Notes: generated by a model from the sequence alone, not told the origin. Shown: positions 7,078-64,000, numbered from the stretch's first letter. The stretch: DNA of 64,000 bases from an uncultured Gammaproteobacteria bacterium (GCA_964520695.1 CAZFNO010000001.1:8211-72210); one strand, 5' to 3'. Translations and numbers: made by a program.

Positions 7078-7129
7078 AATCTAATTCTTCTTGTCAATAA
7101 TATTTCAATTTGCTATTCTCTTTAAGCAA

Positions 7130-8107: not shown

Positions 8108-8116
8108 TTTAAACAG

Positions 8117-8932
8117 ATGATAAAAAATTTAGTTATAGGATCAGAGGGGTTTATTGGCAAACCGTTCTGTAACTTTTTGGAACAAAAAGGAGAAGAAGTA
8201 ATCCGATTTGATATTAAGAAAAATAAAAAAGAAGACGCTAGATTCTTTGAATTTAATTTTAAGAATATTGACAGAATTTATTTTCTTGCTTGGGACGTTG
8301 GCGGATCAAAGTATTTGTACGATTCGAAGCTCCAGATGAGGCAACTAAAATGGAACTTGGAGCTTATGACTAATGTTTTTGCGCATATTGAACGCCAAAA
8401 AAAACCATTTCTTTTTGTTTCAAGTCAGCTGGTTGAAGAATCCGATACTGTTTATGGAGTAACAAAAGCGTTGGGTGAGGTTTGGACAAAAGAATTAGGA
8501 GGGATCTCAGTGAGGGTCTGGAACGCATATGGAGTTATGGAGGAAAAAAATATAAAAAGTCATGTTATTTCCGATTTTATATATCAAGCGCTTGAGAAAA
8601 GAGTGATTAAAACGATGACCGATGGGACTGAATGGCGTCAGTTCACCCACATTAATGATTTATCACGAGCCTTTTATATGGCGCTAAATTCTAAGGAACT
8701 AAGAAGAAGCGTTTATGATGCAAGCAGTTATGAATGGGTAAGAATAATTGATATTGCAGAAATAATTTGCGAGCTAACAGGTGCAAAACTGATTCTAGGC
8801 AAAGTAAAAGGACATGATCCGTCTCCAGCGGTTAATGTTGGGAGAATTCCCGGATGGCTTCCCCAAGTCTCTTTGCATGAGGGAATAAAAGCAATGGTTG
8901 AGAAGGCACGCAAAAAACTTATTAATGACTAA
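8117..8932 (+). CDS. SDR-family sugar epimerase/reductase-like protein
   Basis: 'LVIGSEGFIGKPF' nucleotide-binding motif, 'YGVTKALGE' YxxxK. Confidence 0.6.
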   Translation: MIKNLVIGSEGFIGKPFCNFLEQKGEEVIRFDIKKNKKEDARFFEFNFKNIDRIYFLAWDVGGSKYLYDSKLQMRQLKWNLELMTNVFAHIERQKKPFLFVSSQLVEESDTVYGVTKALGEVWTKELGGISVRVWNAYGVMEEKNIKSHVISDFIYQALEKRVIKTMTDGTEWRQFTHINDLSRAFYMALNSKELRRSVYDASSYEWVRIIDIAEIICELTGAKLILGKVKGHDPSPAVNVGRIPGWLPQVSLHEGIKAMVEKARKKLIND

Positions 8933-10163: not shown

Positions 10164-10792
10164 GAGATTTTTTCCTAAAATTTCAAAACCTATTTTTTTA
10201 TTGGGTTTTACAAAGAGATTTGTCAAATTGCAATTCAGTTCTGGACGTTGGCTGCGGTTATCTTTCTCCTATTGCTAAAATTCCCAAAAATTTTAAAAGT
10301 GAGGGGATTGATATCCATAAAAAAACACTTAGTGAAAGCAAAAGGCATAATAATTATGACAAGTATACTTTGGGAGACATTAAAAAATTATCTAAAATTT
10401 ATAAAAAGAGAAGTTTTGATGTTTGCGTTTCAATTGATGTTATAGAGCATCTTTCGAAAAAAGATGCACGTAAACTTATTAAAGCTATGGAAAGTATATC
10501 TAAAAAGAAAGTTGTTTTGTTGACGCCCAATGGCTACTTAGAGCAGCATGATTACGATGGTAATCCATATCAAGTTCACAAATCTGGCTGGGCAAAATCG
10601 GATTTAGAAAAATTAGGATATTCAGTATATGGTTTAAGAGGATTAAAATATCTAAGAGGTGAAAATGCTTCAATAAAATTTAAACCCTGGATTTTTTGGG
10701 GAATCTTATCTTTTATATCAGAAATTTTGTTATTTATGAGTCCCTCATTATCCTTTGATCTTTACGCAACAAAAACACTAAAAGAAAAGTAG
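10160..10792 (+). CDS. Class I SAM-dependent methyltransferase
   Basis: 'VLDVGCGYLSP' motif I, 'FDVCVSIDVIEHL' motif II/III. Confidence 0.7.
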   Translation: MRDFFLKFQNLFFYWVLQRDLSNCNSVLDVGCGYLSPIAKIPKNFKSEGIDIHKKTLSESKRHNNYDKYTLGDIKKLSKIYKKRSFDVCVSIDVIEHLSKKDARKLIKAMESISKKKVVLLTPNGYLEQHDYDGNPYQVHKSGWAKSDLEKLGYSVYGLRGLKYLRGENASIKFKPWIFWGILSFISEILLFMSPSLSFDLYATKTLKEK

Positions 10793-10806
10793 AAAAAAAT
10801 AATCCA

Positions 10807-11514
10807 ATGAATGTGATATATAAATTAAAGTATTTTTATCAGAGAAAAATATTCCCTGGCTTTAAAACAGATAGTGACTCTCTAGTCATAGATATTGGGT
10901 CGGGGGATAGGCCGTTTTGGCGCGCAGATGTTTATTTAGATAAGCTAACACTTGGAAATAATCAGCGCACATCACAAACTTCCACAATTCATAGTATTGG
11001 AAAATTTATTAATAGCGATGCAGAAAAAATGCCATTTAAAAACAAAGTTTTCGATTTCTCATTCTGTAGTCATCTATTGGAACACGTTGAAGATCCTGGG
11101 AAAGTTATTAATGAGATTATAAGGGTTTCAAAGGCAGGTTACCTTGAAGTACCGAATGGGATTTTGGAAGCAATAGAGCCTTTTGATACTCATTTATGGT
11201 TTGTTTTTTATGACGGCAAAAAGCTAATTTTTTACAGAAAAAGTAAAAAATTTCATGATAACCTTTATAAAAACGGGGTAAACTATATTGGACTTATTAA
11301 TAAGATAGATGAACCGTTCATCAGATTTTATTGGAAAAAATATATTAGGTACGAAATAATTAATGATCATCCCAAAAAGGAAAGATATATGAGTCCAATG
11401 CAAAAAGATGAAAATAAAAGTAAGCAATCTTTCAATTACTATATTATACTGGTTAAACTTCTAAGATTTATTTTTTATAAAAATAAGTCAACTGAAGGTA
11501 TTGAAAAAATATAG
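10807..11514 (+). CDS. Class I SAM-dependent methyltransferase
   Basis: '[10 protein letters not shown]', '[16 protein letters not shown]'. Confidence 0.65.
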
Positions 11515-11515
11515 A

Positions 11516-12121
11516 ATGAAGACTTCAATAAAAAATATTTTCTCTGTATTGAAAAGAAAGGGGATAGTAGAATCCTTTGTTTATTCCCTTGAACTAATTT
11601 TAATCAAGCTTTTCTCGATTACTAAAATATTTTTTCTAAAAATTAGAGGCTACAATATCGACTACACGGTTATCTTAAAAGGAAATAATTTTTTCTTTCA
11701 ATCTGTAAGAGCCGCAATTAATATTTCTAAAAATTCAATAATCGGAAAAAGCACTAGAATTAGTGCAGGCGATAATGGAAAAATATCTATTGGGAGAGAT
11801 GTTTTGATAGATGATTTCACCTATATCATGTCTCATGGAAAAATTGAAATCGGTGACAATTCAAAAATTGCGTCATTTTGTTTTATTATAGATTTTAACC
11901 ATAAATATAAAGATAAGATTAAAAATCTAGTAGAACAAGGATATGAAACAAACCCAATTAAAATCGGTAAAAATGTCTGGATAGGCACTCACGTAATAAT
12001 TCTCCCGGGAGTGACAATAGGCGACAGGGCGATCATTGGAGCAGGATCTGTTGTCACTAAAGATATTTCTTCTGCTTCTATTGCGGTTGGTAATCCTGCC
12101 AAAGTAATAAAGAAATATTAA
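11516..12121 (+). CDS. Hexapeptide-repeat (LbH) sugar O-acyltransferase
   Basis: Tandem [LIV]-G-x4 hexapeptides '[34 protein letters not shown]'; ATG at 11516 preferred to the TTG at 11501. Confidence 0.75.
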
Positions 12122-12127
12122 TTTATT

Positions 12128-14353
12128 ATGAGCATAATTCAATCCCGATGGTTAAAAATTAGTCTTAATATTGTAATCATTGGATTTTTGTTCTTACTCC
12201 CATATTACCTATTTGATGGGAGACTCTTTTTGGGGGGAGATGATACTCGACTTCATTACATTTATCCAGCAGAGTTTTTAAAAAACCTGTCATTTTATTC
12301 ATGGGTAAATATCTCCTCACTACCGTCCTATCTTCCCAACCATCACTCAATACCATTTCTTTTTGTTTTTTCAATTTTAGATAGCATTTTAAACAATAAG
12401 ACTCAGCTTTTTTATTTCGCGTTTTCATTACCATTTGTTCTTGGATTCATTTACTCCCAAAAATTTATTAGAGAACTTGTGGATGAGGATTTTGGGATAT
12501 CTTTTACCGCTTCCTTGATATACATTTTTTCTCCAATAACAGTAGTAAGCCAGATGTATAATTTTTTATTTTCAATGTATCTTGTAGCCGCAGTTCCTAT
12601 TGTTGCATATTACTATATTTGTTATTTAAAAAAAGGGAAAAAAACCGAAGTCTATAAAGTAGTCTTTTGGTCAATTTTCTTTTCAATTGCATTTCTGGCT
12701 ATTCAGTGGATATTAGGGATTTTGCTTCCATTAGTATTAGGGCTTATCTTAATGGTATTTATAGACAATCCGATTAGAAAAATAGCAAGAAGAACAGTTA
12801 TTTTCTTTTACTTTGTTATATCTAGTCAGTTATTTTGGCTTACTCCTTTTATAGTTTCCATTTTATATAAAGGTGACAGTAACCTAGGTGAGAAAATATC
12901 ATCACAGAATTTTCTTGATAGTTTTTCTCAGACAGTAACAGGAACAGCTACTAGCAACATTATCTACCCATTATTAACTTTTTATCACAGACAGATAGCT
13001 TTTGATTATGAATGGCATCTTAAAAATGTCTTTAGTAATTACTTCGATTATGTTATGCCACTTAGCATTATTTTTATTTTAGTTCTATTTTTAGGACTTG
13101 TTAAGTATAATCAGGTGTTAAATAATGATAAAAAACAAATATTTATTTTTTTCTTTGCCTCATTTATTTTTATACTATATTTTTCTACAGTTAATATAAG
13201 CTTTCTCAAAGATATTTTTTTGCTTTTGGGTCACGTTCCTGGATTTGCCATATTCAGAAATTTTACAGATAAGTTTGCCCTTTCTTATATTTTTATTTAT
13301 TCTTCTTTATTTGCTTTATGTATCTACGTCATTAAAAAAAGGTACGGGAAATTTCATAAACTGATTATCTTTGCAACAATAATTGTAGTTGTTATTAACT
13401 TTTTCCCAGTAAGACAAATATTAAATAGTCCATTATGGAAAACAAGAAATGTTTATACAACTGTAAATTTTCCCAAGGAATATGTACATTTTGCGGAAAA
13501 CACAAAACGCACTATCCCAGATACAACCAATATTATCGTATTTCCTCAAAACATAACCTCCTATTCAATAATAACTGAGGATAATGGTAAAAATGCTTAC
13601 ATAGGAACTTCTCCTTTTAAATATTTAACTGGAGTAAATGATCTAACCGGATTGACTTCTTATCCGTTATATATATCAATTGAGGTAAAAAAATTAATTA
13701 TAGGGAGAAACTATGAGGGCCTACTCAAGCTCCTTTCACAAATAAATACAGGTTATGCTATGGTGATCAATAATATTCCGGAAGAGGTTTATGACTCCTA
13801 TTTGTTTGAGGAGAAGTATCTTGAGTTTCAAGATCAAAAATTAATTGACGCTATCTCTGAAAAAGAAATAGTAAAAAGCAATAATGGAAATTATGTGGTT
13901 TTTAAACTGAGAAATTCTCCATCCGTTATTTCTTCAACTGCTGACTTTTCATTCAAGAAACATAACCAAATAAAATACGAAATAACACTTAAGGGTTTAA
14001 AAGGTGAACATGAGCTTATTTTCCGAGAAACTTATCATCCCGGCTGGAAACTTTTTGTTACAAAAAAAGATCAACAAAAATGGTTTTACCTTTTTAGAAA
14101 TCCAGTATTTGAAACTTCTCATAAACAAGCAAAGGTATATGGCAATAAATGGACAATTAGCGAAAAAGAGATAAAAATTAATTTAGATAAGGATGATTAT
14201 AAACTGAACTCCGACGGCTCAATTGAAGTGGAATTTGATTTGTATTTTTTCCCTCAAAGCTATTTTTATATAGGGATAATTATGAGTGCCTTTTTTCTTT
14301 TTACCGGTGGTTTTTATTTTTTCAGAAAAACTAAGAATAAAAAAAATAACTAA
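12128..14353 (+). CDS. Large polytopic membrane glycosyltransferase, GT-C fold with YfhO-like C-terminal domain (paralog A)
   Basis: 'GGDDTRLHY' acidic loop after TM1, >12 TM helices, soluble C-terminal domain with 'YHPGWKLFV'; paralogous to 16386..18803. Confidence 0.5.
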   Translation: MSIIQSRWLKISLNIVIIGFLFLLPYYLFDGRLFLGGDDTRLHYIYPAEFLKNLSFYSWVNISSLPSYLPNHHSIPFLFVFSILDSILNNKTQLFYFAFSLPFVLGFIYSQKFIRELVDEDFGISFTASLIYIFSPITVVSQMYNFLFSMYLVAAVPIVAYYYICYLKKGKKTEVYKVVFWSIFFSIAFLAIQWILGILLPLVLGLILMVFIDNPIRKIARRTVIFFYFVISSQLFWLTPFIVSILYKGDSNLGEKISSQNFLDSFSQTVTGTATSNIIYPLLTFYHRQIAFDYEWHLKNVFSNYFDYVMPLSIIFILVLFLGLVKYNQVLNNDKKQIFIFFFASFIFILYFSTVNISFLKDIFLLLGHVPGFAIFRNFTDKFALSYIFIYSSLFALCIYVIKKRYGKFHKLIIFATIIVVVINFFPVRQILNSPLWKTRNVYTTVNFPKEYVHFAENTKRTIPDTTNIIVFPQNITSYSIITEDNGKNAYIGTSPFKYLTGVNDLTGLTSYPLYISIEVKKLIIGRNYEGLLKLLSQINTGYAMVINNIPEEVYDSYLFEEKYLEFQDQKLIDAISEKEIVKSNNGNYVVFKLRNSPSVISSTADFSFKKHNQIKYEITLKGLKGEHELIFRETYHPGWKLFVTKKDQQKWFYLFRNPVFETSHKQAKVYGNKWTISEKEIKINLDKDDYKLNSDGSIEVEFDLYFFPQSYFYIGIIMSAFFLFTGGFYFFRKTKNKKNN

Positions 14354-14366
14354 TTTAGCATTAAGT

Positions 14367-15392
14367 ATGTATTCTAATAAATTTGTAAAATGGATACTGA
14401 TTCCTGGTTTGCTACTGCTTTTATGGATCTCGCTATCTCTGTTTTATAGTTCATATAGAAGTTTTACAGTTTTACAATACGGCCACAAGACAGATGTTTC
14501 TAACAACTTTGGTGAAAGACAATTACTAAAGAATCAGAAGATTCAGGGAAAATTTGTGGCAAAGGAGAATTATTTAGGCATAATCTCTATAAGATTCGGA
14601 GATATTCCGAAGGTAGATTATGATGAAGAAGATTTAATATTGTTTAGAATTAGAGAAAAAGGCCAACAAGATTGGATATATGAAAATAAATATAGGTCTG
14701 GCTCTTTTTTACAAAATCAATATTTCCCATTCGGATTTAAGCAAATAGAAAACTCCAAAGGAAAAGTATATGAATTTGAATTAATTTCCTTAAATGGAGA
14801 AGAATTCAATTCTGTTGAAATAAAAAACACAAATCCTATCTATTTTTCAAAGTATAAATTTCCAAAAAATGAGATTTTTAAAGACAGTAATTCTATTATA
14901 AAATTTATGACTAAAAAATTAATAACTTTTGCAAATAGTTATGATGCATTGCTTTCTTCTTTTGCATTCTTAATTCCTTTTATTTTCTACATGTTGTGGA
15001 TAATATTTTTTGAAATATGGGTCAAAAGTAAAGGAATAATAAACAGAAGAAATTTATTCATAACCTTTGTTTCAGCATTGATAATATCAGAAATTATTTT
15101 CTATGAATTTATAATTGCCGGATTTATGTTAGGCCTTCTTGCCTTATGGGTTTTTACAGTTTATGTCTGTAAACTTAAAAGTACAACAACATTTACATTA
15201 GCTTTTATTCTATTAGCAATTTCCATCATAAGTCTCTATTTTGATTTGGGGGTATCAGCTGACAAGGCTTCAACTTATGCTTATTTTTTGATTATAGTTG
15301 GATTTGCGCAAAGTATAGGGGAGCATAAGAATTACAAACTAAATGATTTGAAAAAGAAATTTCATTTTAAGATTGAGGATAAAACGTCTTGA
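14367..15392 (+). CDS. Membrane protein, partner of the GT-C paralog (TM - ~150 aa soluble domain - 4 TM)
   Basis: N-terminal TM, central hydrophilic domain ('FRIREKGQQDWIYENKYRSG'), C-terminal helices; paralog of 18800..19798; ATG at 14367. Confidence 0.45.
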   Translation: MYSNKFVKWILIPGLLLLLWISLSLFYSSYRSFTVLQYGHKTDVSNNFGERQLLKNQKIQGKFVAKENYLGIISIRFGDIPKVDYDEEDLILFRIREKGQQDWIYENKYRSGSFLQNQYFPFGFKQIENSKGKVYEFELISLNGEEFNSVEIKNTNPIYFSKYKFPKNEIFKDSNSIIKFMTKKLITFANSYDALLSSFAFLIPFIFYMLWIIFFEIWVKSKGIINRRNLFITFVSALIISEIIFYEFIIAGFMLGLLALWVFTVYVCKLKSTTTFTLAFILLAISIISLYFDLGVSADKASTYAYFLIIVGFAQSIGEHKNYKLNDLKKKFHFKIEDKTS

Positions 15393-16348
15393 AAATGCTG
15401 AGCTAATTTTTTTTGACTCTCTAAAGAGGGATGAACGTCATCAGAAAAATCATTTTCTTCAAGCCAGGAGAATGGATCAATAAAATATAAGTTGTTTTTT
15501 TCTGCTAAAATCTTAATTACATTATTATAATTTTGCAATACGTTCTTATTAATATCATTCCTTTGCAATATCCCCACAAGAAATATTTTCCCATCAGGAT
15601 TAAATTTTTTTACATCAGAAACTATTTTAGAATAGTCTTTTTCAAAAGTATCAAGCTCTACATTTCTTGTCGTATCATTAGTGCCCAGAAAAATAATTAT
15701 TACATTCGATTTAAAGCTCATTAAGTCTTTTTTATAACGTTTGATTGCGTTATCGGCACCTGATACTTCCGAAACGGTTGATTCGATAATGCTCGCATTG
15801 TGAAGTTCATAACCTAAATCTTCAGCCAAGAGATGAGTGTAGTTATTTTTTCCATATATCGTAGAAATTGAATCCCCAAGGATTGAGAGAGTTTTGTCGT
15901 GTTTTCTGTAGGAAGTTATGTCTGCACTCCTTTCAACGTAGATTCCTTTTATAGTTATCTGGCATGGATTATAGAAAAAACTGCAGAAGTGGCGAACTGT
16001 AACGGTGTGCGGCTTTTTTTTATCAACAGCAATCGATAGCCTTTGAGTTTCTAAGTTCGGGGAAGAGATTGAATAAACCTTTTCGTCCACAAGTATTTCC
16101 GCTCCCTGATCTGCTTTTGAGTTAGTATCGAATTCAAAGGCTATTTCCTGACTATTATTTATTATAAAACTAAACTCACTTCCTGAATAATTGCTTTGAT
16201 TATTTATCCATCCAACGCCCCTATTTATAGATCCACTGTTTGCAACATTTTTACTTTTGTCGTTGAATAATAAAATATAGGACAAGATTAGTGCTAAAAT
16301 AGATAAAAATATAATTCCTCGTCTAAAATATAAATGTTTTAATTTCAT
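15362..16348 (-). CDS. SGNH/GDSL-family hydrolase with N-terminal membrane anchor
   Basis: Block I 'LGDSIS', block III 'GTNDT', block V 'DDVHPS'; N-terminal hydrophobic helix. Confidence 0.7.
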   Translation of the reverse strand: MKLKHLYFRRGIIFLSILALILSYILLFNDKSKNVANSGSINRGVGWINNQSNYSGSEFSFIINNSQEIAFEFDTNSKADQGAEILVDEKVYSISSPNLETQRLSIAVDKKKPHTVTVRHFCSFFYNPCQITIKGIYVERSADITSYRKHDKTLSILGDSISTIYGKNNYTHLLAEDLGYELHNASIIESTVSEVSGADNAIKRYKKDLMSFKSNVIIIFLGTNDTTRNVELDTFEKDYSKIVSDVKKFNPDGKIFLVGILQRNDINKNVLQNYNNVIKILAEKNNLYFIDPFSWLEENDFSDDVHPSLESQKKLAQHFQDVLSSILK

Positions 16349-57744: not shown

Positions 57745-59043
57745 ATGAGTGAAGGTAGAATAATTACAGGAGTAGACATTGGAACTTCAAAAATCGTTAC
57801 AATAATTGCAAAGGTAGATGAGACGGTAAATGTTTTGGGCGTGTCAGAAGCCCCCTCAACGGGAATTAAAAAAGGACAGATTGTAAATATAGAAGAGGCA
57901 GTAGTTTCTGTTAACAATTCGATTGAAGCAGCAGAGAGAATGGCCGGGGTCTCGGTTTCCAGGATTGTCGCATCAATTGGAGGAGCAAGTATAGAATCAC
58001 AAAATTCAAGAGGAGTTGTTGCGGTAGCTCAGCCGGAAGGGGACGTTAATACGTCGGACGTTAATAGGGTAATTGATGCTGCTAAAGCGGTTTCACTTCC
58101 CTCAACCAGGGAAATAATCCACGTACTGCCTCGAAGCTTCACAGTTGACGGACAGGAAGGAATCAAAGACCCGGTAGGAATGACCGGGACAAGACTTGAG
58201 GTAGAAACCCATATTGTAACAGCAGGAAGTCCTGCCGTCAGAAATCTTGAAAAAGCATTTTCTCAAGTGGGAGTTGATGTTGAGGCACTAGTTTTTTCGG
58301 GGTATGCAAGCTCACTTTCTGCATTATCAGACACTGAAAAAGAATTAGGAGTTGTTCTTGTAGACATTGGGGCTGGAACTACCGATATTTCAATCTATAT
58401 TGACGGATCTGTAGCCTTCTCATCAGTACTTCCAATTGGAGCCCGCCATATTACAAATGATTTGGCAATTGGACTTCGAATTTCTCTTGAGTCATCTGAG
58501 AAAGTTAAGCTTTTTCTCTCCCGTCCAAAAAAGACGATCTTAAAACCCCAAGACAGGGAAGATGAGCCAAAAGAAAGAAGACTCTCAGATGAGCTGGATT
58601 TATCAAGTCTTGTACTTCCCGAGCAACTTTCTAAAGTTTCACAAAAAACATTAATTGACGGGATTATTAGACCCCGCTTAAACGAAATATTTACAATGGT
58701 AGGGCTTGAAATTAAAAAATCAGGATTCGGCGGACAAACTCCATCAGGCCTTGTAATAACAGGGGGAGGTGCCAAAACGGTTGGTGCTGTTGATTGCGCA
58801 AAAAGAATGCTTGCTATGCCCGTAAGAATTGGTGAGCCGCAAAATCTAAAAGGAATAATCGATGAAATTCAGGGAGCTTCATATTCAACTGTTGTAGGAC
58901 TCGCAATTTACGGAGCGTTAACCGGGGTCCAGTCAAGCTCTACATTTAAGTTTAACGTGAACCTTGGCGGACTTTCCGGTATTAAAATTCCCTCAAAACT
59001 TCCTAAAAAAATCATCGAATTTATAAAATCATTTATCCCTTAG
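57745..59043 (+). CDS. ftsA: Cell division protein FtsA
   Basis: 'ITGVDIGTSKI', 'VLVDIGAGTTD' actin-fold phosphate motifs. Confidence 0.9.
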   Translation: MSEGRIITGVDIGTSKIVTIIAKVDETVNVLGVSEAPSTGIKKGQIVNIEEAVVSVNNSIEAAERMAGVSVSRIVASIGGASIESQNSRGVVAVAQPEGDVNTSDVNRVIDAAKAVSLPSTREIIHVLPRSFTVDGQEGIKDPVGMTGTRLEVETHIVTAGSPAVRNLEKAFSQVGVDVEALVFSGYASSLSALSDTEKELGVVLVDIGAGTTDISIYIDGSVAFSSVLPIGARHITNDLAIGLRISLESSEKVKLFLSRPKKTILKPQDREDEPKERRLSDELDLSSLVLPEQLSKVSQKTLIDGIIRPRLNEIFTMVGLEIKKSGFGGQTPSGLVITGGGAKTVGAVDCAKRMLAMPVRIGEPQNLKGIIDEIQGASYSTVVGLAIYGALTGVQSSSTFKFNVNLGGLSGIKIPSKLPKKIIEFIKSFIP

Positions 59044-59105
59044 TTTTAGTAACTAGTAATTAGAAAATAGTTTTTAGTTTAAAATGTTATCGAAATGATC
59101 GGGGC

Positions 59106-59134
59106 TTGCAAAAACGTTTTTCATTTGCTACGAT
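59106..59134 (+). promoter_or_regulatory. Candidate ftsZ promoter (TTGCAA-17-TACGAT)
   Basis: -10 ends 9 nt before the ATG at 59144, implying a very short or no leader. Confidence 0.4.
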
Positions 59135-59143
59135 TTGTCAACT

Positions 59144-60286
59144 ATGCTCATAAAACCTCAGACGACTAATTTTGCAAAAATAAGAGTAATGGGTATAGGG
59201 GGCGGAGGAACAAATGCCCTAAACTCTATGATTGCGCAGTCATCCATTCAGGGCGTGGATTTCATAGCAGTTAATACAGATGCACAATCTCTTCTTCTTA
59301 ATCAGGCGGCAACAAAAGTTCAGATTGGAGAAGAACTGACAAAAGGACTGGGCTCTGGCGGAAATCCGGAAATTGGAGTACAAGCTGCTGAAGAGTCATA
59401 TGAAAAATTAAAAGATATTTTAGGAGGTACAGACATGGTTTTTCTGGCAGCCGGAATGGGAGGAGGGACAGGATCGGGTTCAACCCCTGTTATAGCAAGG
59501 GCAGCAAAAGAAGTTGGAGCATTAACAGTTGCTGTTGCAACAAAACCATTTACATTTGAGGGAACAAGAAGAATGGTAGTTGCCGAGGAAGCAATTGAAA
59601 ATTTAAAAGACAAAGTAGATACGCTGATTGTAATTCCAAATCAGAGAATTTTAGATGTAGTTGATAAAAAACTTTCACTTCTTGAAGCATTTAAAGTTGC
59701 GGATTCGGTGCTCACCCAGGGAGTTCAGGGAATCTCCGATCTTATAACAATGCCCGGACTTATCAATGTAGACTTTGCGGATGTCAGAACAATTATGCAA
59801 AACGCAGGCACCTCTCTTATGGGAATTGGAACAGGAGTGGGTGAGAATAGAGCCCAAGCAGCAGCGCGGGCTGCAATTGCCTCTCCTCTTCTTGAAATTA
59901 CAATAGAAGGGGCAAGGGGAGTTCTATTTAATGTAATAGGAGGACCGGATCTTACAATGAGCGAGGTGGATGATGCGGCAAAAATTATTGCACAAGCCGC
60001 AGACTCTGATGCAAATATAATTTTTGGTGCAACGATTGATGAGAGTATGAAAGATCAAATGAAAATAACGGTTATTGCAACAGGATTTGACAGCACCCGC
60101 CAGACATTACGCGAGTTTGTTGCTCCTCAGAGGTTTGATTCATCGCAGGCTTTTGGTGCTCAGCAGGAACAAAATACGGATTCACAGCAGGGTCAGGAAG
60201 AACCTCCTCCGCCCTCATCTCCACCTAGTGCTGAAGATGAGGAAGACGTCTGGGACATCCCCGCATTCCTAAGACAGAAGAATTAA
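59144..60286 (+). CDS. ftsZ: Cell division GTPase FtsZ
   Basis: 'GIGGGGTNA', 'GGTGSG' tubulin signature, conserved C-terminal peptide 'DIPAFLRQKN'; ATG at 59144. Confidence 0.95.
   Translation: MLIKPQTTNFAKIRVMGIGGGGTNALNSMIAQSSIQGVDFIAVNTDAQSLLLNQAATKVQIGEELTKGLGSGGNPEIGVQAAEESYEKLKDILGGTDMVFLAAGMGGGTGSGSTPVIARAAKEVGALTVAVATKPFTFEGTRRMVVAEEAIENLKDKVDTLIVIPNQRILDVVDKKLSLLEAFKVADSVLTQGVQGISDLITMPGLINVDFADVRTIMQNAGTSLMGIGTGVGENRAQAAARAAIASPLLEITIEGARGVLFNVIGGPDLTMSEVDDAAKIIAQAADSDANIIFGATIDESMKDQMKITVIATGFDSTRQTLREFVAPQRFDSSQAFGAQQEQNTDSQQGQEEPPPPSSPPSAEDEEDVWDIPAFLRQKN
60259..60286 (+). repeat. Copy A of ftsZ 3'-end repeat (native gene end, PAFLRQKN + TAA)
   Basis: CCCCGCATTCCTAAGACAGAAGAATTAA. 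Confidence 0.7.
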
Positions 60287-60293
60287 CCCCAGG

Positions 60294-60321
60294 TTGACAA
60301 TTCAGGACAAAGTGATATTAT
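60294..60321 (+). promoter_or_regulatory. Sigma70-like promoter TTGACA-16-TATTAT
   Basis: -10 ends 7 nt before the ATG at 60329, so a leaderless transcript is predicted. Confidence 0.55.
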
Positions 60322-60328
60322 TTGAGAT

Positions 60329-60886
60329 ATGGCAATAAGAGTTGAGAACATTGTCGCAAGACCTCCGTATCCAGAAAAACATCCACTTGCCCCAGTTGAA
60401 ATCAGCCCAGAATCAGCAAAGTTAGTTATGAGAGAAAGGGTTAAGAGGTATGCAGAGGGAATTCCTCAAGGATTTGTATCCAGAGCAAGAGGTCCAAGGA
60501 GATCATTGACCCTGATTAGTATAGATAGGGAGGGAGGATGGATGAATTCTACTGAAGCGGGTCATCCTGGATATGTTTTAGACGGAGTCCAGCTTCAAGA
60601 TTTGACAATTGAAGCCATGCAAGAGTTCGGATTAAACACAAATATTACTTATGAATCAGAACACAGTCTCAATCCGCATCCCAACGGAACAATAAGGGAG
60701 CGTACGGTATATCCAAGTCAGACAGTAAAAGGACTATCTTTTGAAAGATGGTTTGATTCTGTAGAGGCTACCGGAGAACCAGTATCCGTGGACTGGAGAT
60801 TGTTAGACACTCATGTAAATCCTGGTGAAGTGCTTATAGGAATGACACCTCCTAAGGAGGTTGTCGCAGTTCAACCTTCTAACTAA
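60329..60886 (+). CDS. Hypothetical protein (185 aa, no TM, unrecognised)
   Basis: Clean ORF with dedicated promoter; no known motif. Confidence 0.5.
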   Translation: MAIRVENIVARPPYPEKHPLAPVEISPESAKLVMRERVKRYAEGIPQGFVSRARGPRRSLTLISIDREGGWMNSTEAGHPGYVLDGVQLQDLTIEAMQEFGLNTNITYESEHSLNPHPNGTIRERTVYPSQTVKGLSFERWFDSVEATGEPVSVDWRLLDTHVNPGEVLIGMTPPKEVVAVQPSN

Positions 60887-60942
60887 AATAATTCCCTCTT
60901 GATATCAATTCTCAAAAAGTTTATATTTTGCCTAGGTGTTTT

Positions 60943-60992
60943 TAGTCCTTCGGCCTTACTCCCTCCAGAGGCGGGCAAGCAGGATAAAACAG
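60943..60992 (+). repeat. GC-rich conserved element, copy 1 (TAGTCCTTCGGCCTTACTCCCTCCAGAGGCGGGCAAGCAGGATAAAACAGG)
   Basis: Shares ~40 nt with 63276..63320, differing mainly by small indels. Confidence 0.6.
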
Positions 60993-60993
60993 G

Positions 60994-61019
60994 CCGCATT
61001 TCTCAGGCAGAAGAATTAG
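60994..61019 (+). repeat. Copy B of ftsZ 3'-end repeat (AAFLRQKN + TAG)
   Basis: CCGCATTTCTCAGGCAGAAGAATTAG; keeps reading frame and stop. Confidence 0.65.
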
Positions 61020-61020
61020 A

Positions 61021-61048
61021 TTGACAATTCAGGAACTACTTGTATAAT
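61021..61048 (+). promoter_or_regulatory. Sigma70-like promoter TTGACA-16-TATAAT
   Basis: TTGACAATTCAGGA is identical over 14 nt to the promoter at 60294; -10 ends 7 nt before the ATG at 61056. Confidence 0.55.
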
Positions 61049-61055
61049 TCTTACC

Positions 61056-61727
61056 ATGACTTTGGAACATGAACTAAGAACTGATTTTGGTGATCCACTC
61101 TCGGAACAACTAAGTCCTTTAGCCGCAGCAGAAGAATTTACGAGAATTTGTGAGATGCTTGATGAAAGACATATCTCATCGTTTCAGGCAGAGGAGGATT
61201 ATTGGGAATCCGGTAAAAGAATATTTGCAGGAGATCCTACAAAAAGACTTGGTGAATTATTATCTCAGTATTATGCCGGTACTCCAACCGCAAGAAAACG
61301 TTTATTGACGGAAGGATTCATAAAACACGGATATAATATGGGGGACGTGGTAAGTGATATTCCCTTTGGAAATTGGCCCGGAGACCTTGGAATGGATATT
61401 GAAAACGGAAGTGCGGGAGTATTTGAGAGGGAGGGAGCGCGGAAAATAGAAAGAACAGAGCTTCTGTTCTGGCTTCCTATTGAGATTGATTTTGATCTAG
61501 CAGGTATGATGGGAAGTTTGTCCGGTGATCCCAAAAAATCAATAGAGGCGTTTTTACAACAAATAGAAGAGTATGAAAAGGTATTCGGAGAGCCTTATGA
61601 CAGCCCCAGAGAAGAAGATACCGAGCATGAAAGGGTAGAAGCTGAGAAAGCAAAAGCAACAATACAGAGGCTTAAAAAAATTTTAGAAAGATTGGGACCT
61701 TCGAGTAATACAAGACTTGATAATTAA
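61056..61727 (+). CDS. Hypothetical acidic protein (223 aa)
   Basis: Clean ORF, own promoter, no recognisable domain. Confidence 0.5.
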   Translation: MTLEHELRTDFGDPLSEQLSPLAAAEEFTRICEMLDERHISSFQAEEDYWESGKRIFAGDPTKRLGELLSQYYAGTPTARKRLLTEGFIKHGYNMGDVVSDIPFGNWPGDLGMDIENGSAGVFEREGARKIERTELLFWLPIEIDFDLAGMMGSLSGDPKKSIEAFLQQIEEYEKVFGEPYDSPREEDTEHERVEAEKAKATIQRLKKILERLGPSSNTRLDN

Positions 61728-61760
61728 TTCCCCTGGCTCTATTCAAAGAGTGATCAATAG

Positions 61761-61787
61761 CCCGCATTCCTAAGGCAGAAGAATTAA
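61761..61787 (+). repeat. Copy C of ftsZ 3'-end repeat (stop-PAFLRQKN-TAA)
   Basis: CCCGCATTCCTAAGGCAGAAGAATTAA, 26/27 identical to copy A; its TTAA also provides the stop of the antisense gene 61784..62014. Confidence 0.65.
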
Positions 61788-62014
61788 ATTGTACTATAAC
61801 CCCTAACGTGGAGAATGTCGTTCTTGCTGACCCTGCGGACATCAGAAAATTTAAGAGTTATTAATGCAACAGTTTTACCTGTTGCTGTAACAAATTCTAC
61901 CTCAATTGTCTTACCATCTTCATATGCATTTACAACTGCTCCCATATCTCCAGCTCTGAGGCCGTGTTCAGGAATGTCGCGCTTAAGTATGACTGTTTCT
62001 AATTCTTCAAACAT
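61784..62014 (-). CDS. DUF4926-like small protein (antitoxin-like partner)
   Basis: 'VILKRDIPEHGLRAGDMGAVVNAYEDGKTIEVEF' resembles the DUF4926 core; start taken at the internal ATG (62014). Confidence 0.45.
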   Translation of the reverse strand: MFEELETVILKRDIPEHGLRAGDMGAVVNAYEDGKTIEVEFVTATGKTVALITLKFSDVRRVSKNDILHVRGYSTI

Positions 62015-62021
62015 ACGCTTA

Positions 62022-62297
62022 TTATAGAGGATAAGCCGTGATAAATCTAGGGCTACCCTCATCTTTCTTTACAAACCAAACAGTGTTTATTTTAACTTTC
62101 TTACCGCTTGGTGATTTTATTATTCCGTCTAACACGTAATTTGTACCATAAGGCAATTTTCTAGATTCTTTTATTTCATTTGATTGGGCGATTGTTATGA
62201 ATGATTTAATCAAAATATCTATGTTGTTATTATTAAAACCAAGTTTTCGAAAAAACTTCGCTTTAGATCTACCGACTATGTGTGTTTCTGAAAGCAA
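62022..62297 (-). CDS. DUF6883-like small protein (toxin-like partner)
   Basis: 'GRSKAKFFRKLGF' and C-terminal 'VWFVKKDEGSPRFITAYPL' resemble the DUF6883 family; TTG start, possibly N-terminally truncated. Confidence 0.45.
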   Translation of the reverse strand: MLSETHIVGRSKAKFFRKLGFNNNNIDILIKSFITIAQSNEIKESRKLPYGTNYVLDGIIKSPSGKKVKINTVWFVKKDEGSPRFITAYPL

Positions 62298-62356
62298 ATA
62301 ATTAGTTTAGCCCGCCAAATCAATCTAAATTATCCTTTTATTTTAATCCTTTAAGG

Positions 62357-62384
62357 TTGACAATATTTAATCCTGTAGTATAAT
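62357..62384 (+). promoter_or_regulatory. Sigma70-like promoter TTGACA-16-TATAAT
   Basis: -10 ends 6 nt before the ATG at 62391 (leaderless). Confidence 0.55.
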
Positions 62385-62390
62385 TCGTGC

Positions 62391-63194
62391 ATGGCTGGCT
62401 GGCTTGAAAGAAATATTAATAGAATAAAAGATCGAGAGAGGGAACTCGAAGAAGAAAGAATCAGAAAACAAAAAGAAGAATTAAGACTACATCAGGAGCA
62501 AGAACAAATTAGGATCGATGAAACATCGAAGGGAAATAGAAGACTTTTAGAGACGTTAGAGAGACTAAATGCAAGGGGATGTTTGGAAGATATAAATACT
62601 TTAACATGGGATGGTGTTGGTACTATTACCATCGATGATCTATTGGCGAATAGAGGGCGAATGGGCATTGAACTTTCTTTTGAATATCCGAGGTATTCTA
62701 CTTATTATTCTCCTGCCTCTGGAATCTTTGATAGCTATAGATCAGCGTCAACTTCTCATTCCGTTAAGTGGGTTTCAACCATGATTAGAGTAGGCCTTGT
62801 TTTAACATTATTAGAAGTACCAGCATTAGAATTGGAAGCCACTTACGGATTTGATACCGACTCTTATGGACAAGCAAAACCGCAATTTAGAGAGCATGTA
62901 TCTGATGTTTTAGTTGATTCGCCAGAATCAGCAAAAGTTGTTATAGAAGATTTCTTAGGAAAAGATATATTAAGACGACAAAGATCCGAATCGTTTCCAC
63001 TTCAACTTGCCAAAAAGGGTTTTGTAGGAATTAATAAAGGTTTACTAACTGGTAGTCCTGGGTGGGAGGAGCGCGTACAACGCGTACAAAGCTTTATAGA
63101 TTCTTCCCCAATTGGGACTTACACTGCGCCTGAGCCAGAATGGATGAGAACACACACTGCAGCACCATATCGTGAGTCTCCTGACAATTGGTAA
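62391..63194 (+). CDS. Hypothetical protein with N-terminal coiled coil (267 aa)
   Basis: 'RIKDRERELEEERIRKQKEELRLHQEQEQIR' heptad-like charged segment, then a globular domain; unrecognised. Confidence 0.5.
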   Translation: MAGWLERNINRIKDRERELEEERIRKQKEELRLHQEQEQIRIDETSKGNRRLLETLERLNARGCLEDINTLTWDGVGTITIDDLLANRGRMGIELSFEYPRYSTYYSPASGIFDSYRSASTSHSVKWVSTMIRVGLVLTLLEVPALELEATYGFDTDSYGQAKPQFREHVSDVLVDSPESAKVVIEDFLGKDILRRQRSESFPLQLAKKGFVGINKGLLTGSPGWEERVQRVQSFIDSSPIGTYTAPEPEWMRTHTAAPYRESPDNW

Positions 63195-63275
63195 TCCAGT
63201 ATTTCTAGTCATAAATATGATATATTCTAATCAGATGTTTTTAGTATGAATTGAAGCTAGAAATAATCTCTGACT

Positions 63276-63320
63276 TAGTCCGTTCGGCAAGCTCTCTCCA
63301 GAGGCGGGCAGGATAAAACA
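63276..63320 (+). repeat. GC-rich conserved element, copy 2 (TAGTCCGTTCGGCAAGCTCTCTCCAGAGGCGGGCAGGATAAAACA)
   Basis: Matches 60943..60992; here fused directly to a promoter with no ftsZ-tail copy. Confidence 0.6.
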
Positions 63321-63329
63321 TTCCCCATA

Positions 63330-63357
63330 TTGACAAATTGATATAGTTTGATATAAT
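63330..63357 (+). promoter_or_regulatory. Sigma70-like promoter TTGACA-16-TATAAT
   Basis: 20-nt leader containing AGGAA before the ATG at 63378. Confidence 0.5.
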
Positions 63358-63377
63358 CCACGCTTAGGAATAAACAT

Positions 63378-64000
63378 ATGAATGAAATACCAGGTCAGCC
63401 ACCAAAAGACGAACCAAAGGCAGTTCAAATGCCTACTGGAGACGAAATGCTACGAAGGCTTCAAGCTACTGGTCTTTATGGATTAACTCCACAGACAGAT
63501 GCTTTTTATGATCAGTTTATGAAATATTCTGCAGGCCATCAACTTAATGGAATGGGTCTCACTAATACTTGGGAACTTGCAAGTTATGATACTTTAAGAC
63601 AGTATCCCCCAGCTCTGAGAGCAGTAATCGGTGCTGGATTTGACAGAGTAATTGATGCAATAACTCCTGATGAAAAGGTGGCAGATGATGCAAAACAATT
63701 TAGAAAAAAAGTACTTGAGGAATTAGCAAGAAAAGCTAAAGAAAGTGAACCCACACCAGAGGAGCTTGGTCCAGCAGATTCGCTAACTGATTTAGCAAGA
63801 TATTCACAAGCCCGTAGAATAGCAGATATCGTGTTTGAGTATGCCAGTGGCGACGTTGGTGTTTCATTTGATTATATATGGATGCAGGATAGAAGAGGAG
63901 AAAGTCCAAATCCATACTACAAACAAACCCATAGAGGTTTTTTCTTAGAAGGATATTATGGACAAATAAGTACACTATGGACTCCATGGGGAGAATATGG
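63378..64000 (+). CDS. Hypothetical protein, 5' part only (runs off the window; not in the ORF track)
   Basis: Manual translation from the ATG at 63378 ('MNEIPGQPPKDEPKAVQMPTGDEML...') gives 207 sense codons with no stop to position 64000. Confidence 0.45.
   Translation, partial: MNEIPGQPPKDEPKAVQMPTGDEMLRRLQATGLYGLTPQTDAFYDQFMKYSAGHQLNGMGLTNTWELASYDTLRQYPPALRAVIGAGFDRVIDAITPDEKVADDAKQFRKKVLEELARKAKESEPTPEELGPADSLTDLARYSQARRIADIVFEYASGDVGVSFDYIWMQDRRGESPNPYYKQTHRGFFLEGYYGQISTLWTPWGEY

What the first reader, a model, noticed from the sequence alone, without database searches (positions are those of the whole stretch)
60259..61787. Three copies of the ftsZ terminal codons plus stop (AFLRQKN*), like an att-site signature
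The native ftsZ end CCCCGCATTCCTAAGACAGAAGAATTAA recurs at 60994 (with a TAG stop) and at 61761 (26/27 identical). Both downstream copies keep the reading frame and a stop codon. This is expected when an element integrates into the 3' end of a gene and regenerates it (attL/attR), or when a block (gene tail + promoter) is serially duplicated. Copies A and B are each followed by the same TTGACAATTCAGGA -35 region, which favours block duplication. No integrase is visible in the window. The encoded peptide is the conserved FtsZ C-terminal tail that binds FtsA.
Basis: seen in the sequence. Interest (0 to 1): 0.7.

Follow-up and report, generated by a model that had tools for sequence, protein, structure and literature searches.

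The report
Mobile-element docking site at ftsZ's end
The last codons of the cell-division gene ftsZ are a docking site for integrating mobile elements in this group of tiny uncultured bacteria (Levybacteria), and the three copies in this window are the junctions left by two small, integrase-less inserted gene units; this is a new target gene for a well-known mechanism.

Summary
The ftsZ tail (..PAFLRQKN*) occurs three times on the + strand, ending at 60286, 61019 and 61787, against a chance expectation of 0. The att-site reading is supported and the block-duplication reading is not.

- In 71 related Levybacteria/Microgenomates loci, 18-24 carry extra tail copies. All lie downstream of ftsZ on the same strand; none lie upstream, on the other strand or in control sequences.
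- A family of Xer-like tyrosine integrases (342 protein clusters) sits 100-250 bp after the ftsZ stop. It heads 5-8 kb islands that end in a second tail copy.
- Three of three integrase homologues chosen without knowing their context also abut ftsZ.
- attL and attR always share AT[TC]CCCGCATT, flanked by inverted half-sites. To the right of that block the copies differ almost only at synonymous positions (92 versus 25, p about 1e-42). The elements therefore carry a replacement ftsZ end.

The window has no integrase. Its two units (733 and 768 bp) each carry one orphan gene behind a near-consensus promoter. The first unit ends with the right-arm sequence of the integrase islands. They are best read as integrase-less (CIME-like) remnants stacked by repeated integration. 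Whether they still move is unknown. This is a new member of a known kind and of moderate interest.

The parts
59135..60286 (+). ftsZ, the last gene of the dcw cluster. The start codon is uncertain: TTG at 59135 or ATG at 59144.
   Evidence: Pfam Tubulin 1e-46 and FtsZ_C 1e-34. It is 59-91% identical to the ftsZ of 80 Levybacteria/Microgenomates genomes.
60251..60286 (+). Copy A: the native ftsZ tail, a complete attB/attL-type site. It reads TGGGACAT (left half-site), CCCCGC (central region), ATTCCTAAG (right half-site), then ..CAGAAGAATTAA.
   Evidence: The block AT[TC]CCCGCATT is the only stretch identical in all seven attL/attR pairs of integrase elements. In the reconstructed attP the half-sites are inverted: AGGAAT TCCCGC ATTCCT.
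60294..60321 (+). Promoter of unit 1 (TTGACA-16-TATTAT, 11/12 matches).
   Evidence: The same promoter precedes the c185 homologue in L095 and an unrelated gene directly after the ftsZ stop in L028.
60329..60886 (+). c185: the cargo gene of unit 1, 185 aa, function unknown.
60910..60946 (+). Fragment of the conserved right arm (P arm) of the integrase islands: TCTCAAAAAGTTTATATTTTGCCTAGGTGTTTTTAGT.
   Evidence: Alignment A2 against the right ends of the L052, L015 and L005 integrase elements.
60947..60992 (+). GC-rich 'TCCTTCGG...' stretch that takes the place of the left half-site of copy B.
   Evidence: The same kind of stretch precedes class-2 copies in many relatives. No significant fold (z = -0.5).
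60993..61019 (+). Copy B: a class-2 tail copy with the central region, right half and TAG stop, but no left half-site. It forms the junction between units 1 and 2.
   Evidence: Versus copy A, the 8 codons after the Pro codon show 4 synonymous and 0 non-synonymous differences.
61021..61048 (+). Promoter of unit 2 (TTGACA-16-TATAAT, 12/12 matches).
61056..61727 (+). c223: the cargo gene of unit 2, 223 aa, function unknown.
   Evidence: No family hit. Only 3 homologue clusters. In L093 the homologue lies just after ftsZ between tail copies. In L094 it lies 127 nt after a tail copy. The AF2 model is poor (pLDDT 51).
61761..61787 (+). Copy C: a class-2 tail copy forming the right junction of unit 2. 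A stop codon lies immediately upstream.
   Evidence: The same copy with the same downstream flank and toxin-antitoxin pair is present in L006, and a matching copy followed by the same toxin-antitoxin pair in L095.
61784..62297 (-). DUF4926 (61784-62062) and DUF6883 (62022-62297) gene pair. I read it as toxin-antitoxin-like from its overlapping two-gene layout and my own recollection of these domains. It belongs to an older module shared with L006 and L095.
   Evidence: Pfam 5e-19 and 6e-23. In L095 the pair is flanked by two tail copies.
62357..63194 (+). A 12/12 promoter (62357-62384) followed by c267 (62391-63194), an orphan gene.
63205..63329 (+). Decayed junction. It has the full P arm (..GTTTTTAGTATGAATTGAAGCTAGAAATAATCTCTGACTTAG, to 63278), a GC-rich stretch (63279-63319), and a tail copy lacking its central 20 nt (63320-63329).
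   Evidence: Repeat families D2/D11 and alignment A2.
63330..64000 (+). A 12/12 promoter (63330-63357) followed by c290 (63378 to beyond the window end; 290 aa in Logan contig L001). A 231-aa ORF follows c290.
   Evidence: A c290 homologue (55% identical) follows a tail copy in L044.

Best explanation
The 3' end of ftsZ is the chromosomal attachment site (attB) of a family of Xer-like tyrosine integrases. Small genomic islands in Levybacteria and other Microgenomates carry these integrases.

Proposed mechanism:
- Recombination takes place in or next to the central (T/C)CCCGC. This sits between a left half-site (TGGGACAT in ftsZ, TTAGGAAT in the elements) and a right half-site (ATTCCTAA).
- The element carries its own, synonymously coded, copy of the last 6-7 ftsZ codons plus a stop. 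ftsZ therefore stays intact after integration.
- The displaced old gene end is pushed to the far side of the insert as a direct repeat.
- Each new integration uses the intact site at the real gene end, so inserts stack up downstream of ftsZ. This is accretion.

In this window two such stacked units remain. Unit 1 is 60287-61019 and carries c185. Unit 2 is 61020-61787 and carries c223. Each now holds only a strong promoter and one orphan gene, and each ends in a tail copy. Unit 1 and the decayed junction after c267 also carry remnants of the element right arm. The units have no integrase, so they are CIME-like: integrase-less derivatives or passengers of the integrase islands. Older modules lie behind them: the DUF4926/DUF6883 pair, c267 with its decayed junction, and c290.

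Copies B and C lack the left half-site. They are probably no longer full recombination sites.

Shown here: the repeats, their polarity, the integrase-ftsZ association, the shared identity block, the synonymous-only divergence, and the shared right arm. Inferred: the exact crossover point, the order of events, and the idea that the window's units are immobile relics rather than units moved in trans.
For: 1. Three copies in the window; chance expectation 0.
2. In 71 related loci with an identifiable ftsZ end, 29 further copies (>=20/26 identical to the locus's own tail) lie downstream on the + strand in 18 loci. There are 0 in 725 kb upstream, 0 on the minus strand in 1.29 Mb, and 0 in reversed or complemented controls. 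Looser scans raise this to about 24 loci.
3. Tyrosine integrases (PF00589, E 1e-28 to 1e-38), 41-73% identical to each other, lie 100-250 bp after the ftsZ stop or after a first toxin-antitoxin cassette. This is seen in L005, L007, L015, L016, L025, L029, L037, L052, L056 and L069. Six of these 5-7.5 kb elements end in a second tail copy.
L113 and L115 show both attL and attR.
5. AT[TC]CCCGCATT is the only block identical in all seven attL/attR pairs. The reconstructed attP has inverted hexamers around a 6-bp spacer. The P and P' arms are conserved over more than 100 nt among elements.
6. Secondary copies differ from the native tail at 92 synonymous versus 25 non-synonymous codons, in five codons not used to find them. 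The expected synonymous fraction is 0.20 and p is about 1e-42. Over 8 codons the counts are 150 versus 27. For window B they are 4 versus 0, and for window C 1 versus 0.
7. The integrase elements' right-arm sequence follows c185 (part of it) and c267 (all of it) in the window. It also follows the c185 homologue in L095 and a NYN gene in L006.
8. The units upstream of the shared 'copy + DUF4926/DUF6883' module differ between species: c185+c223 here, a NYN gene in L006, and the c185 homologue alone in L095.
9. The c223 homologue in L093 and the c290 homologue in L044 again sit next to tail copies behind ftsZ.
10. A published model describes this same sequence of integration, decay to a CIME, and new integration at the att site that holds the gene end (PMC5704250, section 2.3).
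Against: - There is no integrase in the 64-kb window or in the 1 kb beyond it, so nothing shows that these particular units ever moved.
- No contig among those on record from the source study's sequencing runs lacks a unit.
- Both units begin with a promoter 2-8 nt after the tail copy. They lack the left-arm sequence of the integrase islands (terminator hairpin, GAAGCTA motif). Random decay of a larger island would not be expected to produce this twice.
- Copies B and C lack the left half-site. The origin of the GC-rich stretch that replaces it is unexplained.
- The crossover position is inferred from sequence comparison only. In some attL/attR pairs (L029, L089) the right halves differ at many synonymous positions. 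That fits a crossover to the left of them, but it also means those pairs could be old or non-cognate.
- In L095 and L094 homologous units lie in arrays with no ftsZ nearby.
Confidence: 0.75

Rival explanations
1. The array is an active, integron-like gene-capture platform. Promoter-led single-gene cassettes, each bounded by a tail copy, are excised as circles and re-inserted at the ftsZ end by an integrase encoded elsewhere in the genome or on a neighbouring island. The array is then not a graveyard of decayed islands.
For: - Both window units and the first L028 unit start precisely 1-8 nt after a tail copy with the same TTGACAATTCARGA promoter, yet carry unrelated genes.
- The L028 unit has complete sites at both ends.
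- The displaced copies stay translatable, as expected if each periodically becomes the real gene end.
- Cassette contents in relatives are integron-like: toxin-antitoxin pairs, NYN, Fic/Doc, HicA, TIR, and orphans.
- All three perfect TTGACA-N16-TATAAT promoters of the window lie in the array, against 0.04 expected.
- One metagenome contig shows a right-arm/core/left-arm junction.
Against: - Copies B and C lack the left half-site that every integrase-element site has.
- There is no integrase in the window.
- No variant lacking a unit, and no circle junction, appears in the contigs on record.
- The integrase is not an integron integrase (64-93 bits against a cut-off of 265).
- The sites do not fold like attC (z -1.9 to +0.5).
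- The L097 junction could equally come from a tandem array.
Confidence: 0.15
2. Serial local duplication of a block made of the ftsZ tail plus the downstream promoter, followed by divergence. No mobile element is involved. This is the reading the first reader favoured.
For: Copies A and B are each followed by the identical 14-mer TTGACAATTCAGGA, which occurs nowhere else in the window.
Against: - Similarity ends after the tail and that 14-mer.
- The two genes are unrelated.
- Copy C has no promoter after it.
- The same tails bound integrase islands in relatives.
- Right-arm sequence of those islands precedes the junctions.
- B differs from A at 4 synonymous sites and 0 non-synonymous sites, which is not the pattern of a decaying non-coding duplicate.
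- The c185 promoter travels with c185 in L095, where no recognisable tail copy precedes it.
Confidence: 0.05
3. The copies are functional in their own right. They would act either as short peptides that mimic the FtsA-binding tail of FtsZ, or as RNA/DNA signals (terminator, regulator) reused in front of each downstream gene.
For: - The coding capacity of the copies is preserved.
- Copy B lies in a 28-codon stop-to-stop stretch beginning with GTG that would end in ..AAFLRQKN.
- A promoter follows each of copies A and B.
Against: - Copy C, and many copies in relatives, have a stop codon directly upstream and no start codon.
- The GTG of B has no spaced ribosome-binding site.
- No terminator-like hairpin with a T-run overlaps the copies.
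- There is no Rfam match and no significant fold.
- The strict association with integrases and element arms is not explained by this reading.
Confidence: 0.03
4. Assembly artefact: reads from different strains or loci were joined at a short shared sequence.
For: - Tail repeats do break assemblies elsewhere. L006 has a scaffold gap of Ns exactly at its ftsZ tail.
- One Logan contig starts 20 nt before copy C.
Against: Independent Logan assemblies reproduce the same order (four runs for c185/c223, five for the toxin-antitoxin side). One contig spans c185-B-c223-C-DUF4926-DUF6883.
Confidence: 0.01

Closest known systems
Tandem accretion of ICEs/IMEs with CIMEs (cis-mobilizable elements) at the 3' end of a protein-coding target gene. 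The ICESt1/ICESt3-related elements of Streptococcus thermophilus are an example (review PMC5704250, section 2.3, citing Pavlovic et al. 2004 and Bellanger et al. 2011). That their target is the fda gene and their repeat is about 27 bp is my recollection, not checked here.
   Same: - A tyrosine integrase targets the end of a conserved gene.
- The element restores the gene end.
- Direct repeats mark each junction.
- Integrase-less derivatives that keep their att sites stay in the array.
- New elements enter at the site that holds the real gene end.
   Different: - The target is ftsZ, in CPR bacteria.
- The islands are very small (5-8 kb) and have no recognisable conjugation genes.
- The integrase-less units here are single genes with their own consensus promoters.
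- Their downstream sites have lost the left half-site.
- Mobility is untested.
Genomic islands and prophages that integrate into the 3' end of tRNA/tmRNA genes and regenerate it (general knowledge; examples listed).
   Same: An identity block between attP and the gene's 3' end. Direct repeats flank the island. There are hot-spots with several islands in tandem, and defence and toxin-antitoxin cargo.
   Different: Here the regenerated end is protein-coding. The element-borne copy can therefore drift at synonymous sites while keeping the peptide, which gives a direct test (92 versus 25). No tRNA gene lies in the window.
Chromosomal integrons (cassette arrays).
   Same: An ordered array of short, mostly single-gene units in one orientation, separated by a repeated site. 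Many units are toxin-antitoxin or orphan genes. The newest unit is expected next to the fixed site.
   Different: - There is no IntI-type integrase (below the NCBIfam cut-offs; none in the window).
- The sites are not attC-like hairpins.
- Every unit has its own promoter rather than relying on one Pc.
- The fixed site is the end of an essential gene.
Defence islands and integration hot-spots carrying anti-phage systems.
   Same: Islands at this site in relatives carry an AbiP2-type reverse transcriptase (9e-173), a PDC-S45 candidate, a TIR effector, a KAP NTPase, a Zeta toxin, Fic/Doc, HicA and an Mrr-like nuclease.
   Different: The window's own cargo genes match no known defence family.

Membership tests
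Site-specific integrative elements (tyrosine recombinase, attL/attR) | Direct repeats in one orientation that contain the 3' end of the target gene and bound the inserted DNA. | tested here: met
   Three copies in the window. In relatives all 29 strict extra copies are downstream on the + strand and none lie elsewhere.
Site-specific integrative elements (tyrosine recombinase, attL/attR) | An integrase gene inside the element, next to one att site. | tested here: not met
   Not met for the window's units: an HMM of 8 integrases finds no hit at E<=10 in any ORF of 80 aa or more in the window or L001. Met in relatives: 10 ftsZ-centred loci, plus 3 of 3 independently chosen homologues.
Site-specific integrative elements (tyrosine recombinase, attL/attR) | A core site made of inverted half-sites around a 6-8 bp overlap, shared by attL and attR. 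| tested here: met
   AT[TC]CCCGCATT is identical in all 7 attL/attR pairs. The reconstructed attP reads AGGAAT TCCCGC ATTCCT. This is sequence evidence only; the cleavage sites were not mapped.
Site-specific integrative elements (tyrosine recombinase, attL/attR) | Occupied versus empty site polymorphism. | tested here: inconclusive
   Between species: most loci have a single tail, and the units upstream of the shared copy-plus-toxin-antitoxin module differ among the window, L006 and L095. Within the source population: only the occupied form is seen in the contigs on record.
Site-specific integrative elements (tyrosine recombinase, attL/attR) | Excision to a circle carrying attP. | not testable with these tools
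   One right-arm/core/left-arm junction was found (L097). It may be a tandem junction. Raw reads are not available here.
CIME (cis-mobilizable element) | Flanked by att sites, lacks integrase and transfer genes, and is related to an integrase-bearing element. | tested here: met
   The units are bounded by tail copies and have no integrase. The integrase islands' right arm is present after c185 and c267. Caveat: sites B and C lack the left half-site.
CIME (cis-mobilizable element) | Can be excised or moved together with, or by, a neighbouring integrase-bearing element. | not testable with these tools
   This needs read-level or experimental data.
Integron | An IntI-type integrase next to attI and a common promoter Pc. 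| tested here: not met
   The integrases of relatives score 64-93 bits against TIGR02249, whose cut-off is 265. Their best matches are Xer-type models, also below cut-off. There is none in the window. Each unit has its own promoter.
Integron | attC sites that fold as imperfect hairpins. | tested here: not met
   Single-strand DNA folds of 10 copies and spacers give z from -1.9 to +0.5.
Tandem or segmental duplication | The repeated units are homologous along their length. | tested here: not met
   c185 and c223 are unrelated. Only the 27-nt tail and a 14-nt promoter stretch are shared.

The most novel reading that the evidence does not exclude
The ftsZ end in these CPR bacteria may anchor a working gene-capture array. 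Promoter-led single-gene cassettes, bounded by ftsZ-tail sites, would be swapped in and out by a Xer-like integrase supplied in trans. Each tail copy would periodically become the real end of ftsZ, which would explain why displaced copies stay translatable. That would be an integron-like system built on a double-stranded site inside an essential gene, evolved independently of integrons.
Probability: 0.15. Interest if true: 0.75.

Novelty: new member of a known kind. Interest (0 to 1): 0.45.

Why it matters
- It identifies a previously unreported integration hot-spot, the coding end of ftsZ, together with its integrase family. The family comprises 342 protein clusters and is annotated only as 'XerD' or 'integrase'. 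It occurs across a whole lineage of uncultured, small-genome bacteria.
- The region right after the cell-division operon is a main place where these genomes collect defence, toxin-antitoxin and orphan genes.
- The site is protein-coding, so the element must carry a working copy of an essential peptide (the FtsZ tail). This leaves a clean evolutionary signature.
- A defined integrase with a roughly 22-30 bp site conserved in many CPR genomes is a candidate tool for inserting DNA into organisms that so far cannot be engineered.
- The repeats explain why assemblies of these genomes break or gap at ftsZ.

Tried and rejected
- Folding the copies and spacers as single-stranded DNA, to test an attC-like or terminator hairpin, gave z from -1.9 to +0.5 and no support. 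A by-eye impression that the spacers pair with the preceding tail was dropped.
- Rfam on 59000-64000 at E<=1 found nothing. No tRNA or tmRNA gene lies in the window.
- Pfam, NCBIfam, PHROGs and PADLOC gave no hit for c185, c223, c267, c290 or c231.
- The cargo proteins show no paralogy with each other.
- GC content of the array is no different from the rest of the window.
- A search for population variants through exact-protein look-ups of c185, c267 and DUF4926 found only the same arrangement. The exact sequences of ftsZ and c223 are not on record.
- IMG/VR held no ftsZ relative by the peptide patterns used and one contig with tail copies.
- My first idea for the core site (ATTCCT AAGACAG AGGAAT, with the crossover in AAGACAG) was replaced after the attL/attR comparison. 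That comparison places the shared block further left, at CCCGCATT.
- Literature searches for ftsZ as an att site, and for CPR or Levybacteria integrases, found nothing relevant.
- A first version of the synonymous/non-synonymous test used codons that were part of the search pattern. I repeated it on five unconstrained codons.


Full report
**Observation**

ftsZ (59135/59144-60286, +) closes a dcw cluster (murG, ftsQ-like, ftsA, ftsZ). Its last nine codons plus stop recur twice downstream on the same strand.

- Copy B ends at 61019. It has a TAG stop and five differences from the native tail.
- Copy C ends at 61787 and has one difference.
- A degenerate pattern covering the three copies finds exactly these three places in 64 kb on both strands. 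Shuffles give a mean of 0.01 matches and never three.
- Copies A and B are each followed within 8 nt by TTGACAATTCAGGA, which occurs nowhere else in the window.
- Independent Logan assemblies reproduce the gene order ftsZ-c185-c223-DUF4926-DUF6883-c267-c290-c231 (four runs for c185/c223, five for the DUF4926 side).

**What lies between and after the copies**

- Unit 1 (60287-61019) holds an 11/12 promoter and a 185-aa ORF.
- Unit 2 (61020-61787) holds a 12/12 promoter and a 223-aa ORF.
- Then come a DUF4926/DUF6883 pair on the other strand, a 12/12 promoter with a 267-aa ORF, and a 12/12 promoter with a 290-aa ORF that runs off the window.
- The three perfect TTGACA-N16-TATAAT promoters of the whole window all lie in this last 3 kb, against 0.04 expected.
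- None of the + strand ORFs matches any Pfam, NCBIfam, PHROGs or PADLOC family, and they are unrelated to each other.
- They are real genes. c185 has five homologue clusters and c223 three among 5.8 billion proteins, with conserved alignments.

**Relatives**

ftsZ places the window in Candidatus Levybacteria (Microgenomates, CPR). I fetched ftsZ with 10 kb on each side from 80 species representatives.

- A translated-motif scan and two DNA scans showed further tail copies in about a quarter to a third of the species.
- With a strict criterion (>=20/26 identical to the locus's own tail), 71 loci have an identifiable ftsZ end.
- These loci hold 29 extra copies in 18 loci, all downstream of ftsZ on the + strand.
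- None lies in 725 kb upstream, none on the minus strand of 1.29 Mb, and none in reversed or complemented controls.
- Spacing between copies ranges from about 50 bp to 7.9 kb.

**Integrases**

The larger intervals begin with a 337-365-aa protein of the phage-integrase family (PF00589, E 1e-28 to 1e-38).

- Homologues, 41-73% identical to each other, lie 100-250 bp after the ftsZ stop in L007, L015, L016, L025, L029, L037, L052, L056 and L069. In L005 the integrase follows a first toxin-antitoxin cassette.
- In six of these loci the 5-7.5 kb element ends in a second tail copy.
- Because those loci were chosen through ftsZ, I made a less biased test. The integrase family has 342 clusters at E<=1e-30 in the protein database.
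All lie 160-215 bp downstream of ftsZ wherever the upstream gene is visible (P0070 in 7 of 10 places; the other 3 are cut by the contig end). L113 and L115 show both attL and attR.
- The family is Xer-like. It falls below every curated NCBIfam cut-off, including that for integron integrases.
- Island cargo includes an XRE-type regulator, an SNase-like nuclease, an Mrr-like nuclease, an AbiP2-type defence reverse transcriptase (9e-173), a PDC-S45 candidate, a KAP NTPase, a Zeta toxin and, in one case, a capsid-domain protein.
- An IMG/VR contig shows tailed-phage genes with a second, distant integrase ending at a tail copy, followed by an island of the first type. At least two integrase lineages therefore use this site.

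**The site**

I compared attL and attR of seven islands.

- The only block identical in every pair is AT[TC]CCCGCATT.
- To its right, the ftsZ-proximal copy (supplied by the element) and the distal copy (the displaced host end) differ only at synonymous positions. In L029, TTT CTA CGG CAG AGG AAT TAA and TTT TTA CGT CAA CGA AAT TAA both encode FLRQRN*.
- To its left, the distal copy resembles ftsZ but is not coding.
- Joining the element's two ends gives AGGAAT TCCCGC ATTCCT. This is inverted hexamers around a 6-bp spacer, the usual layout of a simple tyrosine-recombinase core.
- The arms on both sides are conserved among islands for more than 100 nt. They contain inverted GAAGCTA/TAGCTTC motifs and a terminator-like hairpin on the ftsZ side.
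- I infer a crossover in or beside (T/C)CCCGC. It was not mapped.

**Test of 'the element regenerates the gene end'**

If the copies are, or descend from, working ftsZ ends, they should differ from the resident tail mainly at synonymous sites. Decaying non-coding duplicates should not.

- I found copies only by the anchor CCGCNTT and scored the five following codons. Across 37 copies, 92 differing codons are synonymous and 25 are not.
- The expected synonymous fraction is 0.20 and the binomial p is about 1e-42. Several of the non-synonymous cases are evident chance anchor hits.
- Over eight codons the counts are 150 versus 27.
- Window copy B shows 4 versus 0 and copy C 1 versus 0.

**How the window's units relate to the islands**

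An alignment (A2) shows a roughly 75-nt right arm in the integrase islands: TCTTAAAAAGTCTATATTCTTATCAGGTGTTTTTAGTAAGAATTGAAGCTAGAAACAAT..GACTTAG.

- It is present in full after c267 (63205-63278) and in part after c185 (60910-60946).
- It is also present after the c185 homologue in L095 and after a NYN gene in L006.
- The units therefore carry island right ends but no integrase. An HMM of eight integrases finds nothing in any ORF of 80 aa or more in the window or the 1-kb extension.

Units vary between species.

- The module 'class-2 copy + DUF4926/DUF6883' is shared by the window, L006 and L095; the window and L006 share the same downstream flank.
- That module is preceded by c185+c223 here, by a NYN gene in L006, and by the c185 homologue alone in L095.
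- The c223 homologue in L093 lies just behind ftsZ between tail copies. The one in L094 lies 127 nt after a tail copy.
- The c290 homologue in L044 follows a tail copy.
- Small units in relatives carry NYN (4), Fic/Doc (3), HicA, a TIR effector, a methyltransferase, a NUDIX protein and many orphans.

**Two kinds of copy**

- Class 1 copies have both half-sites (..TGGGACAT/TTAGGAAT + YCCCGC + ATTYYT..). They close the integrase islands.
- Class 2 copies, including window B and C, begin exactly at CCCGC. Their left half-site is displaced or replaced by a 5-60-nt GC-rich stretch that often starts TCCTTCG.
- In about ten species a class 2 copy sits 46-60 nt after the native tail with no gene in between.
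- I could not explain their origin. They do not fold significantly and match no RNA family.
- Because a simple recombinase needs both half-sites, I consider B and C probably inactive. That is inference.

**Interpretation**

The best-supported reading follows a published scheme of integration, decay to an integrase-less element that keeps its att sites (a CIME), and further integration at the att site that contains the gene end (PMC5704250, section 2.3). Here the target is the end of ftsZ. The window shows two such integrase-less units stacked in front of older modules.

The main uncertainty is whether these promoter-led single-gene units are relics or are still moved in trans.

- For live cassettes: their left boundaries are precise, and the same promoter sits directly after a tail copy in front of three unrelated genes (window c185, c223; L028).
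- Against live cassettes: half-sites are missing, there is no local integrase, and no variants are on record.

Serial block duplication, function as peptides or signals, and misassembly are each contradicted by specific results. These are listed with the rival explanations.

**Novelty and interest**

The mechanism is conventional. The target gene, the integrase family's tight link to it, its spread across Levybacteria and into Gottesmanbacteria, and the synonymous-replacement signature appear to be undescribed. Literature searches found nothing, although the library is not exhaustive. I rate it a new member of a known kind, with interest 0.45.

Noticed in passing
window 61021-63357: All three perfect TTGACA-N16-TATAAT promoters of the 64-kb window lie in the 3 kb after ftsZ, one in front of each orphan gene (0.04 expected). 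The 60 kb of core genes has none.
   Followed up: partly
window 60936-61019: A 28-codon stop-to-stop stretch beginning with GTG would encode ..RIKQAAFLRQKN, a peptide ending in a near-copy of the FtsZ tail. It has no spaced ribosome-binding site and is probably not translated.
   Followed up: partly
L006 11096-11126: The closest species representative (ftsZ 90% identical) has a scaffold gap of Ns exactly at the ftsZ tail. The repeated tails probably break assemblies of these genomes.
   Followed up: no
L089 (IMGVR_UViG_3300027835_000014) 5986-15576: Tailed-phage genes (Dit, tail fibre) and a second, distant tyrosine integrase (6303-7385) end at a tail copy. An island of the main integrase family follows. 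A prophage therefore seems to use the same ftsZ site.
   Followed up: partly
L029 17072-18565; L037 16201-16959; L113 10204-12450 and 15717-16409; L115 10346-11035: Islands at the ftsZ site carry an AbiP2-type defence reverse transcriptase (PADLOC 9e-173), a PDC-S45 candidate, a KAP NTPase plus a Zeta toxin, and in one case a Phage_capsid-domain protein. The last hints at a satellite-like element.
   Followed up: partly
L030 11079-11150, L031, L035 6675-6756, L026 11088-11160, L024 11097-11182, L032 1316-1393, L093 9635-9721: The native ftsZ tail is followed after only 19-33 nt of GC-rich spacer by a second, synonymously diverged tail copy with no gene in between ('empty' units). Origin unexplained.
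   Followed up: partly
L095 10559-11700: The c185 homologue and a DUF4926/DUF6883 pair lie in an array with tail copies, each preceded by a roughly 100-nt repeat. There is no ftsZ upstream (glycosyltransferase genes instead). Such arrays are therefore not always next to ftsZ.
   Followed up: partly
L096 770-1561: Another c185 homologue (60% identical) has a right-arm fragment fused directly to its promoter. It lies 47 nt from a tRNA-Val gene, another classical integration target.
   Followed up: no
L093 2056-2730; L094 6673-7350: IS200/IS605-type Y1 transposase genes (PF01797) lie inside the dcw region of one relative and next to the c223 homologue in another.
   Followed up: no
L097 (Ga0213870_1013897), reverse strand 60-230: A right-arm/core/left-arm junction (attP-like) has no integrase after it and an IS30-like transposase fragment nearby. 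It is either a tandem junction or part of a circle.
   Followed up: partly
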